The position numbers and the translations under genes are program-made. From assembly GCF_003334305.1 (NCBI RefSeq), contig NZ_QOWS01000014.1: a DNA stretch of 64,000 bases. One strand, given 5' to 3'. The stretch comes from Escherichia coli. Its GTDB lineage: Bacteria; Pseudomonadota; Gammaproteobacteria; Enterobacterales; Enterobacteriaceae. Under the pieces are notes generated by a model. The model ran no database searches and was not told the DNA's origin. It worked only from the letters and a program-made list of their open reading frames with translations. Numbering within the stretch: the stretch's first letter is position 1; each line of letters starts with the position of its first letter. Positions 1 to 34,048 of the stretch are shown here, piece by piece.

Positions 1-2835
1 CAGCCTGCCGTGACGGTCATACCGGTAAAGATAGTGCGCGTCACGGGCGATACGGTTATCCGGCCACATGCTGAGGGTGCTGTCCGGGTGCAGCTCCGGG
101 TCGGGCAGGCGGTTGCCCGCCGGGTCCGTGGCATACGGGATGCGGATATCCAGATTCGCTGCGGTGGTGTGAACGCCGGTCAGCCTGCCGGTGGTGCTGT
201 AGCTGTAACTCCGGGTCTGGCGCGGGCTGCTGATGCGGATGAGTTCGCCGTTGTCGTTCCAGGTGTAATCGCGGTCATACTGCAGGCTGTTCAGGTGCTG
301 ACGCTGTAACTGCCCGGCAGGGGTGTAAGCGGTGGTGAGTTCATAACGGCCGAAGCGGCGCAGCGTTTCCCGGTGCAGGCGGTCGCGGGTGTACTCCACC
401 AGCGGTGTGTCGCCGAGTTTCATGCCTGCCAGGTAACCGCTGCCGTAGGTCAGCCATTCCACGGCGGGCAGGCTGTCCGGTATACAGCGGTTCGCCAGTC
501 CCTGCGCGTTGTACGCATGTCTGGTCTCATGCTGCCAGAGCAGTGCTTCCGTCTGCGGGTGATGCACCGTCTGGCGCTCACCGGTCAGGCGGCCTTTCTC
601 ATCATACCTGTAATGCACCGCTACCCGGTGCCCTTCGCTGATATGGCTGATGTCTGTCAGCCAGCCACGTTCGTCATACCGCCACCGCTCTGCGGTTTCA
701 CCCTTCACGGTGCGGTGCGTGAGGCGGTCTGCTTCGTCATAGTGCCAGTGGGTGACCAGACCCTCATCCTCGCTGCGGATAAGTTTGCCGGTCAGGTCGT
801 GGTGATAACGCTGTGTGCGGCCGTCAAAGCCGGTTTCCTGTATCAGCCGGTCAAGTACATCGTAACGGAAGGTGGTGTGGCTGCCGTTTTCACTGGTCAG
901 GCGGATGACCCGTCCGGCAGCATCGTATTCCATACTGCGCGTCAGCCCGCCCTGCGTGGTACGGACGGCCTTTCCCCACGCATCGTACTGTGTCCCGTTT
1001 CTGCTGCCGTCCGGGGCAATGACGGCGGTCAGGTCACCGGCGATGTTGTATTCATACCGCGTTTCATGGCCCTGCGTGTCTTTCACCGCAGTTAACTGTC
1101 CACGGCTGTCGTATGCGTGGTACTGGCTCAGGCCTTCCTCGCGGTGCACCGCCGTCACCTGACCAAAACGGTCATGGTCATAGCGGGTTACATAACCGGA
1201 ACAGTCAGTGAAGGTCAGCAACTGACCGTAACGGCTCCACGTCATGGTTTTCCGGCTGCCGGTGGCATCGTCCGTTGCGCAGGGGAGGTCACTGTGTGGA
1301 TTATCATAACGGTAGCGGGTGATATCGCCGTCAGGGGCAGTTTCCTGAATCAGACGGCCGGATTCATCATATTCCCGGCGCAATTCCAGCCCGTCAGGCC
1401 CGGTGGCTGACGTTAACTGGTTGTGGTGGTTATAGTAAAACGCCGATGCCCTGCCATCCGGCGTGGTTATGCGCGTGATGAGGCCCGTCACCACATCCGG
1501 GCTGTACTCTGTTGTCCTGCCTGCGGCATCCGTCTGTGCCCTGAGCCTGCCCACGGCGTCAAACTGACTCTGCGTGACGCTGCCGTCCGCGTGTTCCTTT
1601 TTCACCACCCGCTTCAGCCCGGCTTCGCCCTGCGTGTGCAGCACTTCACGGCGGTCCAGGCTGTCGGTGATGGTGATGTGGTCTTTCTCATACTGATACG
1701 TGTAGCTTAAGCCTGCCGGGTTTAGCTGTTCTGTCACCCGCCCGTCGCTGTCGTAACGGTAACGGATTTCCGGTCGGCTCGTGTGACGGTGCGCCACCAT
1801 CCGGCCCCGGTATTTATCATCGTAAGTAAAGCTGCGCACCTGTGTATTGCTGCGGTCATACACTGCCGCCAGTTCGCCGCGCGGCGTCCAGCCATAGCGC
1901 ACCAGCGGCGCGGCAGGTAAATTCTCCGGGTATTCCGGGTCGTGCGTCAGCCACACGGCAGACAGACGGATGCCGTTGTCCCGGCCATATTCGGTGTAAC
2001 CCGGCAGGGTATCAGGAAAAGCGGACGGTTCCGTCCCGCCGGAAATGGCCTGCTGCCGGGCTTCTTCTGCCCGCTGCGCCTGCGTGGTCAGTACCAGCCG
2101 GAAGTGACGCCCGGCACCATCCGTCACGCCGGTGATTTCGCCGCTGAATTCACCGGCGGCTTCGTGGTGGAACGTCTGTGTGCGCCCGAAGCGGTCCACC
2201 AGCCCGGTCAGTACCCGGTACGGCGGCAGCGGCGCAGGCAGCACCTCATCCGCTTCCGGCACCCGCTCACACCAGCCGAGTACCCACCACGGCCCCTGCG
2301 GACTGTTTGTCGCCAGATAACGATGCGGACTCAGGCGAAGCTCTTCCGGCAGCGCCTGCCAGAGTGCGGCCAGCCGGTGACCTTCATCCAGTTTCGCCAC
2401 ACCGCCGCGCACCAGCCAGAGTGATTCGCTGCGGCTGTAACCGTCCTCACCGGGAAACAGGTGCTCAAAATACAGGCTTCTGCCGCCGTTATCACTGAGT
2501 ATCAGTGTGTTATCGCGCAGCTGTAAGCGGATATCCGCAGGCATTTTCCAGCCGGGGCCGAGGCTCCCCACCGGCGCGGGCGTTTTTGTCCGGTAACTGC
2601 TGTAGGTGCGGGAGAGAATGAACGGCAGCGGGCCGGGCAGGGCGATGTCGGTTTCACCGGGAAGGACCTTTGCACCCAGCAGCGGATTGACCGGATGGCC
2701 GGACGTCACCCCGCCGGGGCACACCGAACAGGCCACGCCGGTGGGGGCACCGATGCGCACCCCGGCTGAACCCTGGACAATGCTACCGCCATACTGCGTC
2801 ATGTCGCCCTGACGCGCCGCCGGTTTTCCGCTCAT
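1..2835 (-). CDS. rhsC: Rhs-family core protein, N-terminal ~945 codons; gene continues beyond the window start
   Basis: Minus-strand frame open from ATG at 2835..2833 to position 1; translation begins [33 protein letters not shown] and carries YD-repeat blocks (RYDxxGRL). AAGGA 7 nt upstream of the ATG. Absent from the ORF track because no stop falls in the window. Symbol assigned from position next to ybfA only. Confidence 0.85.
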
Positions 2836-31371: not shown

Positions 31372-33036
31372 ATGTGTTCAATTTTTGGCGTATTCGATAT
31401 CAAAACAGACGCAGTTGAGCTGCGTAAGAAAGCACTCGAGCTGTCACGCCTGATGCGTCATCGTGGCCCGGACTGGTCCGGTATTTATGCCAGCGATAAC
31501 GCCATTCTCGCTCACGAACGTCTGTCAATTGTTGACGTTAACGCGGGGGCGCAACCTCTCTACAACCAACAAAAAACCCACGTACTGGCGGTAAACGGTG
31601 AAATCTACAACCACCAGGCATTGCGCGCTGAATATGGCGATCGTTATCAGTTCCAGACAGGGTCTGACTGTGAAGTGATCCTCGCGCTGTATCAGGAAAA
31701 AGGGCCGGAATTTCTCGACGACTTGCAGGGCATGTTTGCCTTTGCCCTGTACGACAGCGAAAAAGATGCCTACCTGATTGGTCGCGACCATCTGGGGATC
31801 ATCCCACTGTATATGGGCTATGACGAACACGGTCAGCTGTATGTGGCCTCAGAAATGAAATCGCTGGTGCCAGTTTGCCGCACGATTAAAGAGTTCCCGG
31901 CGGGGAGCTATTTGTGGAGCCAGGACGGCGAAATCCGTTCTTATTATCATCGCGACTGGTTCGACTTTGATGCAGTGAAAGATAACGTGACCGACAAAAA
32001 CGAGCTGCGTCAGGCTCTAGAAGATTCCGTTAAAAGCCATCTGATGTCTGATGTGCCTTACGGTGTGCTGCTTTCTGGTGGTCTGGATTCCTCAATTATT
32101 TCCGCTATCACCAAGAAATACGCAGCCCGTCGCGTGGAAGATCAGGAACGCTCTGAAGCCTGGTGGCCGCAGTTACACTCCTTTGCTGTAGGTCTGCCGG
32201 GTTCACCGGATCTTAAAGCAGCCCAGGAAGTGGCAAACCATCTGGGCACGGTGCATCACGAAATTCACTTCACTGTACAGGAAGGTCTGGATGCCATCCG
32301 CGACGTGATTTACCACATCGAAACTTATGATGTGACCACTATTCGCGCTTCAACACCGATGTATTTAATGTCGCGTAAGATCAAGGCGATGGGCATTAAA
32401 ATGGTGCTGTCCGGTGAAGGTTCTGATGAAGTGTTTGGCGGTTATCTTTACTTCCATAAAGCGCCCAACGCTAAAGAACTGCATGAAGAGACGGTGCGTA
32501 AACTGCTGGCCCTGCATATGTATGACTGCGCGCGCGCCAACAAAGCGATGTCCGCCTGGGGCGTGGAAGCGCGCGTTCCGTTCCTCGACAAAAAATTCCT
32601 TGATGTGGCGATGCGCATTAACCCGCAGGATAAAATGTGCGGTAACAGCAAAATGGAAAAACACATCCTGCGTGAATGTTTTGAGTCATACCTGCCCGCA
32701 AGCGTGGCCTGGCGGCAGAAAGAGCAGTTCTCCGATGGCGTCGGTTACAGTTGGATCGACACCCTGAAAGAAGTGGCGGCGCAGCAGGTTTCTGATCAGC
32801 AACTGGAAACTGCCCGCTTCCGCTTCCCGTACAACACGCCAACCTCAAAAGAAGCGTATCTGTACCGGGAGATCTTTGAAGAACTGTTCCCGCTTCCGAG
32901 CGCCGCTGAGTGCGTGCCTGGCGGTCCTTCCGTCGCGTGTTCTTCCGCTAAAGCGATTGAGTGGGATGAGGCGTTCAAGAAAATGGACGATCCGTCTGGT
33001 CGTGCGGTTGGCGTTCACCAGTCGGCGTATAAGTAA
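31372..33036 (+). CDS. asnB: Asparagine synthetase B (glutamine-hydrolysing), 554 aa
   Basis: Internal ATG of ORF 31291..33036 gives MCSIFGVFDIKTDAVELRKKALELSRLMRHRGPDWSGIY (N-terminal nucleophile Cys2) and the SGGLDSS PP-loop. Confidence 0.96.
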   Translation: MCSIFGVFDIKTDAVELRKKALELSRLMRHRGPDWSGIYASDNAILAHERLSIVDVNAGAQPLYNQQKTHVLAVNGEIYNHQALRAEYGDRYQFQTGSDCEVILALYQEKGPEFLDDLQGMFAFALYDSEKDAYLIGRDHLGIIPLYMGYDEHGQLYVASEMKSLVPVCRTIKEFPAGSYLWSQDGEIRSYYHRDWFDFDAVKDNVTDKNELRQALEDSVKSHLMSDVPYGVLLSGGLDSSIISAITKKYAARRVEDQERSEAWWPQLHSFAVGLPGSPDLKAAQEVANHLGTVHHEIHFTVQEGLDAIRDVIYHIETYDVTTIRASTPMYLMSRKIKAMGIKMVLSGEGSDEVFGGYLYFHKAPNAKELHEETVRKLLALHMYDCARANKAMSAWGVEARVPFLDKKFLDVAMRINPQDKMCGNSKMEKHILRECFESYLPASVAWRQKEQFSDGVGYSWIDTLKEVAAQQVSDQQLETARFRFPYNTPTSKEAYLYREIFEELFPLPSAAECVPGGPSVACSSAKAIEWDEAFKKMDDPSGRAVGVHQSAYK

Positions 33037-33347: not shown

Positions 33348-33376
33348 TTGACGCTGCAAGGCTCTATACGCATAAT
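33348..33376 (+). promoter_or_regulatory. Promoter of the metT tRNA operon
   Basis: TTGACG (33348..33353), 17-bp spacer, CATAAT (33371..33376), then GC-rich discriminator GCGCCCCGC typical of stringently controlled stable-RNA promoters; about 40 bp upstream of the first tRNA. Confidence 0.65.
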
Positions 33377-33416
33377 GCGCCCCGCAACGCCGATAAGGTA
33401 TCGCGAAAAAAAAGAT

Positions 33417-33493
33417 GGCTACGTAGCTCAGTTGGTTAGAGCACATCACTCATAATGATGGGGTCACAGGTTCGAATCCCGTCGTAGCCACCA
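33417..33493 (+). tRNA. metT: tRNA-Met (elongator, anticodon CAU)
   Basis: GGCTACGTAGCTCAGTTGGTTAGAGCACATCACTCATAATGATGGGGTCACAGGTTCGAATCCCGTCGTAGCCACCA; cloverleaf with CAT anticodon and encoded CCA. Confidence 0.95.
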
Positions 33494-33502
33494 TCTTTTT
33501 TT

Positions 33503-33587
33503 GCGGGAGTGGCGAAATTGGTAGACGCACCAGATTTAGGTTCTGGCGCCGCAAGGTGTGCGAGTTCAAGTCTCGCCTCCCGCACCA
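33503..33587 (+). tRNA. leuW: tRNA-Leu (anticodon UAG), long variable arm
   Basis: GCGGGAGTGGCGAAATTGGTAGACGCACCAGATTTAGGTTCTGG...CCCGCACCA; anticodon loop TTTAGGT. Confidence 0.93.
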
Positions 33588-33610
33588 TTCACCAGAAAGC
33601 GTTGTACGGA

Positions 33611-33685
33611 TGGGGTATCGCCAAGCGGTAAGGCACCGGTTTTTGATACCGGCATTCCCTGGTTCGAATCCAGGTACCCCAGCCA
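33611..33685 (+). tRNA. glnU: tRNA-Gln (anticodon UUG)
   Basis: TGGGGTATCGCCAAGCGGTAAGGCACCGGTTTTTGATACCGG...CCCCAGCCA; anticodon loop TTTTGAT. Confidence 0.93.
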
Positions 33686-33700
33686 TCGAAGAAACAATCT

Positions 33701-33777
33701 GGCTACGTAGCTCAGTTGGTTAGAGCACATCACTCATAATGATGGGGTCACAGGTTCGAATCCCGTCGTAGCCACCA
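33701..33777 (+). tRNA. metU: tRNA-Met (elongator, anticodon CAU), second copy
   Basis: Identical 77-nt sequence to the first tRNA-Met. Confidence 0.95.
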
Positions 33778-33825
33778 AATTCTGAATGTGTCGAATACGT
33801 TCGGCAAATTCAAAAACCAATTTGT

Positions 33826-33900
33826 TGGGGTATCGCCAAGCGGTAAGGCACCGGATTCTGATTCCGGCATTCCGAGGTTCGAATCCTCGTACCCCAGCCA
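33826..33900 (+). tRNA. glnV: tRNA-Gln (anticodon CUG)
   Basis: TGGGGTATCGCCAAGCGGTAAGGCACCGGATTCTGATTCCGG...CCCCAGCCA; anticodon loop ATTCTGA. Confidence 0.93.
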
Positions 33901-33904
33901 CATT

Positions 33905-33931
33905 AAAAAAGCTCGCTTCGGCGAGCTTTTT
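33905..33931 (+). terminator. Intrinsic terminator of the tRNA operon
   Basis: AAAAAAGCTCGC-TTCG-GCGAGCTTTTT directly after the last tRNA. Confidence 0.8.
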
Positions 33932-33984
33932 GCTTTTCTGCGTTCATTCAATGTCGAATGCGATGTTGACACGTTTTATCCTTC

Positions 33985-34048
33985 AATGTCGGATGCGACG
34001 CTGCCGCGTCTTATCCGACCTACGGTTGGCACGCATCCGGCAATGTTG
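33985..34048. repeat. REP (repetitive extragenic palindromic) element
   Basis: TGTCGGATGCGACGCTGCCGCGTCTTATCCGACCTACGGTTGGCACGCATCCGGCA, the familiar GCCGGATGCG...CTTATCCGGCCTAC REP pattern, between the tRNA terminator and the ubiF stop. Confidence 0.7.

What the first reader, a model, noticed from the sequence alone, without database searches (positions are those of the whole stretch)
33417..33900. metT tRNA operon carries five tRNAs (Met-Leu-Gln(UUG)-Met-Gln(CUG)) instead of the seven I recall in K-12
Seen: exactly five cloverleaf genes with spacers of 9, 17, 15 and 48 bp, a stringent-type promoter upstream and a terminator downstream. K-12 is described with metT-leuW-glnU-glnW-metU-glnV-glnX, i.e. 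two tandem copies of each Gln isoacceptor. Here each Gln species is single-copy, consistent with copy-number variation by unequal recombination between tandem repeats.
Basis: partly seen in the sequence, partly recalled or inferred. Interest (0 to 1): 0.3.

Follow-up and report, generated by a model that had tools for sequence, protein, structure and literature searches.

The report
Five-gene metT tRNA operon allele
This is the ordinary E. coli metT tRNA operon, but with one copy instead of two of each glutamine tRNA gene; that is either a routine repeat-mediated copy-number change or an assembly collapse, and it is not a new kind of feature.

Summary
ARAGORN and Rfam both find exactly five tRNA genes at 33417-33900 (+): Met(CAU), Leu(UAG), Gln(UUG), Met(CAU), Gln(CUG). 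They lie between asnB and ubiF. All five genes are identical to their K-12 counterparts, and K-12 has seven.

The window matches E. coli strain A7 exactly over 30,177 bp. Upstream it differs at only 13 bases, all inside a multi-copy Rhs repeat. A7 has seven genes. Removing one 109-bp unit (Gln-UUG plus spacer) and one 112-bp unit (Gln-CUG plus spacer) from A7's operon reproduces the window's operon base for base. The breakpoints lie in 77-bp perfect direct repeats.

Seven genes is the usual state across Enterobacteriaceae, so five is derived. Among 5,426 complete E. coli genomes, about 13 (0.24%) carry the same five-gene form. About 12 records lack an intact leuW-Gln(UUG) segment. Those inspected carry no Gln(UUG) gene at the locus, a set expected to be inviable, so collapse at these repeats does occur. 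Variant records also cluster by sequencing project.

Without reads I cannot separate a real deletion (about 45%) from collapse (about 50%). Either way the finding is ordinary.

The parts
31372..33036 (+). asnB (asparagine synthase B), the upstream flanking gene
   Evidence: ORF list. The window is base-identical to strain A7 here, where the gene is annotated asnB.
33348..33385 (+). Putative metT promoter: -35 TTGACG, 17-bp spacer, -10 CATAAT, then the GC-rich discriminator GCGCCCCGC
   Evidence: Consensus scan, 10 of 12 matches. The sequence is identical in K-12. Activity and stringent control are inferred, not tested.
33417..33493 (+). tRNA-Met(CAU), elongator, equivalent to metT
   Evidence: ARAGORN; Rfam 71.1 bits; identical to K-12 metT.
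33503..33587 (+). tRNA-Leu(UAG), equivalent to leuW
   Evidence: ARAGORN; Rfam 57.6 bits; identical to K-12 leuW.
33611..33685 (+). The single tRNA-Gln(UUG) gene, identical to both glnU and glnW. The missing 109-bp unit was lost somewhere within this repeat. Upstream is the leuW-glnU spacer and downstream the glnW-metU spacer.
   Evidence: The U-W spacer is absent from the window.
33701..33777 (+). tRNA-Met(CAU), equivalent to metU, identical to the first Met gene
33826..33900 (+). The single tRNA-Gln(CUG) gene, identical to both glnV and glnX. The missing 112-bp unit was lost within this repeat. Upstream is the metU-glnV spacer and downstream the post-glnX terminator.
   Evidence: The V-X spacer is absent from the window.
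33906..33941 (+). Rho-independent terminator: an 11-pair hairpin AAAAAGCTCGCTTCGGCGAGCTTTTT followed by a T-rich tail
   Evidence: Terminator scan. A Rho-independent terminator of the metT operon is described in PMC2241853.
33944..34013 (+). REP/BIME-like pair of 35-nt units after the terminator; not part of the operon
   Evidence: the repeat finder family D3. The assignment to REP is from my own knowledge of the consensus.
34054..35229 (-). ubiF, the downstream flanking gene
   Evidence: Translation; annotated ubiF in A7.

Best explanation
The locus is the standard E. coli metT tRNA operon between asnB and ubiF: one promoter, one terminator, and a polycistronic transcript cut into tRNAs by RNase P and RNase E. 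It is in a reduced five-gene form. This form derives from the ancestral seven-gene form by loss of exactly one 109-bp unit (Gln-UUG gene plus 34-bp spacer) and one 112-bp unit (Gln-CUG gene plus 37-bp spacer). Both losses run through 77-bp perfect direct repeats.

Shown: the identity of the genes, the exact unit arithmetic, the derived polarity, and the fact that the state is private to this assembly. Inferred: where the loss happened. I rate collapse of the two tandem repeats during genome assembly as slightly the more likely cause (about 0.5). A genuine double deletion in the strain is about 0.45. In the collapse case the strain really has seven genes.

If the deletion is real, all three tRNA species are still encoded, and tRNA-Gln gene dosage is halved within one transcription unit.
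For: - Five tRNAs, with sequences identical to the K-12 genes.
- K-12 has seven.
- The window is 100.000% identical to strain A7 over 33824-64000 (30,177 bp). It is 99.961% identical over 1-33687, with all 13 mismatches in 1836-2613 inside rhsC. That stretch is multi-copy and is 100% identical to another Rhs paralogue of A7.
- A7, H15, TUM1887 and NCTC9088 all carry seven genes.
- A7's operon minus one unit of each kind equals the window's operon exactly. The repeats are 75 nt plus 2 nt of perfect identity.
- The canonical seven-gene array is found in 43 complete loci of Enterobacterales species representatives, including E. albertii, Salmonella, Citrobacter, Enterobacter and Kluyvera.

Pointing to collapse:
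- Both tandem pairs are reduced together in a background with no unique-sequence difference from a seven-gene strain.
- The joint absence of both spacers is far commoner than independence predicts. The U-W spacer is missing in 84 of 5,426 genomes and the V-X spacer in about 158, giving about 2.4 expected jointly. At least 16 are observed.
- About 12 'complete' records lack an intact leuW-Gln(UUG) segment. Those inspected, such as MC1061 and ST648, carry no Gln(UUG) gene at the locus.
- Variant records cluster by sequencing project.
- The window's exact rhomboid-propeller protein occurs on only one contig longer than 1 Mb, presumably A7 itself. The rest are contigs of 200 kb or less, so the window probably comes from a draft assembly.
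Against: Against collapse:
- The contig passes correctly through the equally long (78-bp) metT/metU repeat, and is otherwise flawless over more than 61 kb.
- Among the loci with a complete operon retrieved (a mix of draft contigs and complete chromosomes), nearly all carry seven genes. Three draft contigs instead end inside the operon rather than collapsing it (L159-L161).
- Five-gene alleles occur in about 13 complete genomes from several laboratories.
- Repeat-mediated loss within this very operon has been seen in vivo: metT/metU recombination on a plasmid (PMC5400242).
- RecA-independent deletion between direct repeats under 200 bp is a well-documented process (PMC7145654).

No reads were available, so nothing here tests collapse directly.
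Confidence: 0.5

Rival explanations
1. A genuine strain-level copy-number variant. Two independent in vivo deletions each removed one tandem Gln tRNA unit, by RecA-dependent unequal sister exchange or by RecA-independent template switching or slippage between the 77-bp direct repeats. The strain lives with one gene per Gln isoacceptor.
For: - The unit arithmetic is exact and the breakpoints lie in perfect repeats.
- The remaining gene set still covers every codon, unlike the records with no Gln(UUG).
- The same five-gene allele occurs in about 13 complete genomes on at least four flank haplotypes. It also occurs in one draft (L135) and in single representatives of E. whittamii, Rahnella victoriana and a Pluralibacter MAG.
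- Six-gene and eleven-gene alleles show that the locus changes in both directions.
- Recombination inside this operon has been observed experimentally (PMC5400242).
- Variation in runs of tRNA genes among E. coli strains has been reported (PMC2884548; PMC4539685).
- Such deletions are generally taken to be much more frequent per generation than a point mutation at any one site (my own knowledge, not computed here), so zero SNPs alongside two deletions is not paradoxical.
Against: - It needs two separate events in a lineage that shows no unique-sequence difference from a seven-gene relative.
- None of the ten nearest complete genomes has the five-gene form.
- Five-gene records are scattered single tips rather than clades. 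At least 24 other genomes share FDAARGOS_1077's flank perfectly and none of them is in the five-gene list.
- Seven genes are conserved across Enterobacteriaceae, which implies selection against loss.
- The public records that support this reading are contaminated by evident artefacts.
Confidence: 0.45
2. The five-gene arrangement is ancestral or a stable lineage allele, and K-12's seven genes arose by later duplication.
For: The operon must have grown by duplication at some point. Many Yersiniaceae and Morganellaceae representatives carry a single Gln(CUG) gene (22 loci with M-L-Qu-Qu-M-Qc).
Against: - Seven genes occur in E. albertii, Salmonella, Citrobacter, Enterobacter, Klebsiella/Raoultella and Kluyvera.
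- In E. coli the U-W spacer is present in 98.5% and the V-X spacer in 97.1% of complete genomes.
- The window's nearest relatives, identical in their flanks, have seven.
Confidence: 0.01
3. The five-gene allele was imported from another strain by homologous recombination (allelic replacement).
For: Five-gene alleles exist in other E. coli backgrounds, and E. coli recombines frequently.
Against: - The operon's spacers and both flanks are base-identical to A7's own allele (1,400 bp upstream and 900 bp downstream with 0 mismatches).
- The best five-gene genome in the collection reaches only 99.5-99.7% identity.
- So there is no imported tract to see.
Confidence: 0.02

Closest known systems
[quoted passage not shown]
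   Same: It sits in the same chromosomal site between asnB and ubiF. The promoter-like and terminator sequences are the same, the gene order is the same, and all tRNA sequences are identical. Processing by RNase P after terminator removal by RNase E or G is described for this operon (PMC2241853).
   Different: There is one copy instead of two of Gln(UUG) and of Gln(CUG), so the operon spans 484 bp instead of 704-705 bp. The 34-bp and 37-bp inter-Gln spacers are absent.
Five-gene alleles already deposited in complete E. coli genomes (such as GF66.1, FDAARGOS_1077, ECCTRSRTH03, CEA106S, TUM9757 and AVS0543)
   Same: The arrangement Met-Leu-Gln(UUG)-Met-Gln(CUG) is identical, aligning in a single full-length piece.
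   Different: They sit on different flank haplotypes (96-99.7% identity). None belongs to the window's A7-like lineage.
Repeat-mediated copy-number change in tandem tRNA arrays. Examples are glyV-X-Y with three or four copies in E. coli, the plasmid metT/metU recombinant pUST314, and unequal crossing-over at tyrT-tyrV.
   Same: Loss or gain is in whole repeat units between identical tRNA genes (PMC4539685; PMC5400242; PMC2884548). The tyrT-tyrV example is from my own knowledge.
   Different: Here two separate tandem pairs are reduced in one operon, and the event itself is not documented by reads or by experiment.
Assembly collapse of short tandem repeats
   Same: All differences from the nearest complete genome lie in repeated DNA. 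Other records at this locus show collapses that should not be viable.
   Different: There is no direct signature in the window, such as depth or an unplaced spacer contig. The 78-bp Met repeat was traversed correctly.

Membership tests
metT tRNA operon of E. coli / Enterobacteriaceae | Chromosomal position between asnB and ubiF | tested here: met
   asnB ends at 33036 and ubiF runs 34054-35229 (-). A7 and K-12 have the same neighbours.
metT tRNA operon of E. coli / Enterobacteriaceae | Gene order Met-Leu-Gln(UUG)-...-Met-Gln(CUG)-... on one strand, with tRNA sequences equal to metT, leuW, glnU/W, metU and glnV/X | tested here: met
   All five genes are 100% identical to the K-12 genes.
metT tRNA operon of E. 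coli / Enterobacteriaceae | Seven genes, with two tandem copies of each Gln isoacceptor | tested here: not met
   Only five genes are present. Both inter-Gln spacers are absent from the window. This is a copy-number allele of the operon, not a different operon.
metT tRNA operon of E. coli / Enterobacteriaceae | A single sigma-70 promoter with a GC-rich discriminator, and a Rho-independent terminator | tested here: inconclusive
   Consensus matches lie at 33348-33376 and 33906-33931, and the sequence is the same as in K-12. The terminator is documented in PMC2241853. Promoter activity and stringent control were not tested.
Repeat-mediated tandem copy-number variant (in vivo) | The missing DNA equals whole repeat units, with breakpoints inside perfect direct repeats | tested here: met
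   A7's operon minus 109 bp and 112 bp equals the window's operon. The repeats show 77 bp of perfect identity.
Repeat-mediated tandem copy-number variant (in vivo) | The longer form is ancestral, so the shorter form is derived | tested here: met
   Outgroups and nearest relatives carry seven genes.
Repeat-mediated tandem copy-number variant (in vivo) | The shorter form is physically present in the strain's DNA, shown by spanning reads, PCR or depth | not testable with these tools
   No reads or strain are available.
Assembly collapse of tandem repeats | Differences from a near-identical reference are confined to repeated sequence | tested here: met
   There are 0 mismatches in 30,177 bp downstream. 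Upstream there are 13 mismatches, all in a multi-copy Rhs segment, plus the two tandem-unit losses.
Assembly collapse of tandem repeats | Excess read depth over the collapsed unit, or spacer k-mers present in the reads | not testable with these tools
   No reads are available.

The most novel reading that the evidence does not exclude
The five-gene allele is real. Together with the 2- to 11-gene alleles in public genomes, it would mark the metT operon as a fast, reversible dosage switch for tRNA-Gln (and for tRNA-Met and tRNA-Leu). Strains would cycle through it under selection, for example for slow growth or host association, rather than it being neutral noise or assembly error.
Probability: 0.04. 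Interest if true: 0.4.

Novelty: already known. Interest (0 to 1): 0.08.

Why it matters
It matters little biologically. If the deletion is real, the strain has half the usual gene dosage for both glutamine tRNAs. It also has no spare Gln(CUG) gene that could mutate to a supE-type amber suppressor; that point is inference from general knowledge. This is a small and probably slightly deleterious polymorphism of a kind already described for tandem tRNA arrays.

The practical value is a caution. Copy number at this locus is unreliable in public assemblies, including 'complete' ones. About 0.2% of such records lack an intact leuW-Gln(UUG) segment here. tRNA gene counts taken from assemblies should therefore be checked against reads before being interpreted.

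Tried and rejected
- **Extra or degenerate tRNA copies.** I looked for any missed by one tool. ARAGORN and Infernal agree on five, and neither inter-Gln spacer occurs anywhere in the window even with 3 mismatches.
- **Five genes as the ancestral state.** Rejected by 120 loci from Enterobacterales species representatives.
- **Import of a foreign allele.** Rejected because the flanks and spacers are identical to A7.
- **Is the five-gene form a clade trait?** That would argue it is real. The flank haplotype of FDAARGOS_1077 is shared perfectly by at least 24 other genomes, none of which is in the five-gene list. The ST131-haplotype six-gene allele is concentrated in one sequencing project, alongside seven-gene genomes of nearly the same size. 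Both results were inconclusive and lean toward noise.
- **Source assembly of the window.** I searched with exact-protein look-ups. Only one of 14 contigs carrying the rhomboid allele is displayed, so the source stayed unidentified.
- **Collapse rate in draft assemblies.** The sample of about 23 complete loci contained one five-gene and one six-gene case, which is too small and not random.
- **Withers et al. 2006 (RNA 12:933).** The paper is not held in the library.
- **Coverage-based counts from search_dna_similar.** These were ambiguous because pieces that repeat a tRNA are sometimes joined. I first misread the joined three-Gln records as 2x UUG + 1x CUG. Those whose record span I checked (+111 to +115 bp), and the two I inspected (MG1655p, EcPF18), are 1x UUG + 2x CUG.

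Full report
**Observation**

ARAGORN finds five tRNA genes in the 64-kb window, all at the reported locus. They are Met(CAU) 33417-33493, Leu(UAG) 33503-33587, Gln(UUG) 33611-33685, Met(CAU) 33701-33777 and Gln(CUG) 33826-33900, on the + strand. Infernal with Rfam RF00005 finds the same five at 57.6-71.1 bits and nothing else nearby.

The spacers read from the sequence are 9, 23, 15 and 48 bp. A promoter-like TTGACG-17-CATAAT lies at 33348-33376 and is followed by GCGCCCCGC. A terminator-like hairpin at 33906-33931 is followed by a T-rich tail. These are consensus matches only. The terminator of this operon is documented experimentally in K-12 (PMC2241853); the 'stringent' character of the promoter is inference. 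The flanking genes are asnB upstream and ubiF downstream.

**Comparison with K-12**

MG1655 has metT-9-leuW-23-glnU-34-glnW-15-metU-47-glnV-37-glnX. All five window genes are base-identical to their K-12 counterparts. The two Met genes are identical to each other, and the two Gln species differ at 7 positions.

In the window, the single Gln(UUG) gene is preceded by the leuW-glnU spacer and followed by the glnW-metU spacer. The single Gln(CUG) gene is preceded by the metU-glnV spacer and followed by the post-glnX terminator. So one whole unit of each tandem pair is missing and nothing else has changed. Neither inter-Gln spacer occurs anywhere in the window.

**Which genome, and what do its relatives have?**

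The 18 kb downstream of the operon matches E. coli strain A7 perfectly (NZ_CP028767.1, orangutan faeces). It matches nine further complete genomes at 99.97% or better. A direct alignment gives these results:
- Window 33824-64000 is 100.000% identical to A7 (30,177 bp).
- Window 1-33687 is 99.961% identical, without gaps.
- All 13 mismatches fall in 1836-2613, inside rhsC.

That stretch is multi-copy, with a median of 5 places per genome. It is 100% identical both to another Rhs paralogue of A7 and to the orthologous rhsC of strain H15.

A7, H15, TUM1887 and NCTC9088 all carry seven tRNA genes. Deleting one 109-bp unit and one 112-bp unit from A7's 705-bp operon gives the window's 484-bp operon exactly. 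There are 0 mismatches in 1,400 bp upstream and 900 bp downstream. The direct repeats are 75 nt plus 2 nt of perfect identity.

The five-gene state is therefore private to this assembly. Every difference from A7 lies in repeated DNA.

**Polarity**

A pattern scan of one genome per GTDB species returned 120 Enterobacterales loci. ARAGORN on these gave the following:
- The canonical seven-gene array is found in 43 complete loci, plus 8 near locus ends. These include E. albertii, Salmonella, Citrobacter, Enterobacter, Klebsiella/Raoultella, Kluyvera and Cedecea.
- A six-gene form with one Gln(CUG) is found in 22 loci, mostly Serratia, Rahnella, Morganella and relatives.
- The five-gene form appears only in single short-read or MAG representatives: E. 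whittamii Sa2BVA5, Rahnella victoriana and a Pluralibacter MAG.

Seven is thus the conserved state in Enterobacteriaceae, and five is derived.

**Frequency in E. coli**

Among 5,426 complete genomes:
- The glnU-glnW spacer is present in 5,342.
- The glnV-glnX spacer is present in 5,267.
- So about 1.5% and 2.9% of genomes lack a second copy. Extra places show that expansions also occur.

A query spanning the whole five-gene allele aligns in one full-length piece in 16 genomes. One of these (GF54) was fetched and carries an 11-gene array, (Met-Leu-Gln)x3-Met-Gln. GF8 and GF161, which give the same hit pattern, are assumed to be alike. That leaves about 13 true five-gene records (0.24%), on at least four flank haplotypes.

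Six-gene forms exist, such as MG1655p and EcPF18. So do 2- to 4-gene forms.

Independence of the two losses would predict about 2.4 genomes lacking both spacers. At least 16 are seen.

**Artefacts at this locus**

An intact leuW-Gln(UUG) segment is present in 5,414 of 5,426 genomes. The remaining 12 or so include MC1061 (Met-Gln(CUG) only) and ST648 (Met-Leu-Gln(CUG)).

As far as I know, E. coli has no Gln tRNA gene outside this operon, and only the UUG species reads CAA. The operon is described as carrying essential tRNA genes (PMC6265465). These records therefore cannot be true genomes and must be collapses across the same repeats. Their number is about the same as that of the five-gene records.

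Variant records are also concentrated in a few sequencing projects (GF, AVS, IPCEC, CEA, STK, TUM). In the ST131 haplotype, six-, five- and two-gene forms come mostly from one project. That project also contains seven-gene genomes of almost the same size.

The flank haplotype of the five-gene FDAARGOS_1077 is shared perfectly by at least 24 other genomes, none of which is in the five-gene list. So five-gene records are isolated tips, not clades.

Loci retrieved from other assemblies (draft contigs and complete chromosomes) mostly carry seven genes, and three draft contigs end inside the operon instead. One five-gene draft contig and one six-gene contig were seen among about 23 complete loci.

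The window's exact rhomboid-propeller protein is on only one contig longer than 1 Mb, presumably A7 itself; this was not shown directly. The other 13 contigs are 200 kb or less, which suggests the window comes from a draft assembly.

**Mechanism**

Loss of whole units between identical, closely spaced direct repeats is the expected product of two processes. One is unequal sister-chromosome exchange. The other is RecA-independent template switching or slippage, which is prominent for repeats under 200 bp (PMC7145654).

Recombination inside this very operon has been observed: metT x metU, deleting leuW-glnU-glnW on a plasmid in Salmonella (PMC5400242). Variation in runs of tRNA genes among E. 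coli strains has been noted before (PMC2884548; PMC4539685).

The same repeats are also where assemblers can drop a loop. The sequence alone cannot say which happened.

**Weighing the two causes**

For a real deletion:
- The remaining gene set is viable.
- The mechanism is known and fast.
- The contig traverses the 78-bp Met repeat correctly.
- The same allele occurs in several complete genomes.

For collapse:
- Two events are needed in a background that shows no unique-sequence difference from a seven-gene strain.
- All differences lie in repeats.
- Co-loss is in excess, which fits a single technical cause.
- Collapses demonstrably occur at this locus.
- Variant records cluster by project.
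- The window probably comes from a draft assembly.

I put collapse at about 0.5, real deletion at about 0.45, and everything else at about 0.05.

**Verdict**

In either case the feature is ordinary: a known operon in a known kind of copy-number state, already present in public genomes. The interest is low. The most useful by-product is the warning that tRNA copy number at this locus is unreliable in deposited assemblies.

Noticed in passing
window 41065-42942 (- strand): A 625-aa ORF fuses an N-terminal rhomboid protease domain to a C-terminal beta-propeller (YVTN/PQQ-type repeats). It lies between lnt and gltI. It is annotated 'rhomboid family intramembrane serine protease' in A7, and it is absent at this site in FDAARGOS_1077. 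The exact allele is on only 14 contigs in the large collection.
   Followed up: partly
window 1836-2613 (inside rhsC, - strand): These are the only 13 mismatches to strain A7 in 64 kb. The stretch is 100% identical to a different Rhs paralogue of A7 and to the orthologous rhsC of strain H15. This indicates gene conversion between Rhs cores, or paralogue mixing in one of the assemblies.
   Followed up: partly
window 33944-34013: Two tandem 35-nt REP/BIME-like units (80% identical) lie just after the operon terminator.
   Followed up: no
L005 (MC1061, NZ_CP195014.1) and L006 (ST648, NZ_CP008697.1). Also GF47, AVS0947, IPCEC48, HS13-1 and WB61.: These 'complete' E. coli records have a metT locus reduced to Met-Gln(CUG) or Met-Leu-Gln(CUG). 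That leaves no tRNA-Gln(UUG) gene, and often no leuW, which is an implausible and presumably collapsed assembly. About 12 of 5,426 genomes are affected.
   Followed up: partly
L004 (GF54, NZ_CP172159.1) 1449-2497. GF8 and GF161 give the same hit pattern but were not fetched.: An eleven-gene array, (Met-Leu-Gln UUG)x3-Met-Gln CUG. It amounts to an amplification of the 283-bp Met-Leu-Gln unit on a five-gene background.
   Followed up: partly
search hits: Non-canonical metT loci are concentrated in a few sequencing projects (strain prefixes GF, AVS, IPCEC, CEA, STK, TUM). Within the ST131 haplotype, genomes of nearly equal size from one project carry 7, 6, 5 or 2 genes. This suggests pipeline-dependent errors.
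   Followed up: partly
L120 (Enterobacteriaceae bacterium LSJC7, AMFN01000002.1): The array is Met-Leu-Gln(UUG)-Gln(CUG)-Met-Gln(CUG)-Gln(CUG). A CUG gene sits in the slot normally held by the second UUG gene, possibly through an anticodon switch or gene conversion.
   Followed up: no
L159-L161 (draft contigs of ST131-type genomes): These contigs end 231-486 bp after ubiF, inside the tRNA operon. Some draft assemblers therefore break at these repeats rather than collapse them.
   Followed up: no
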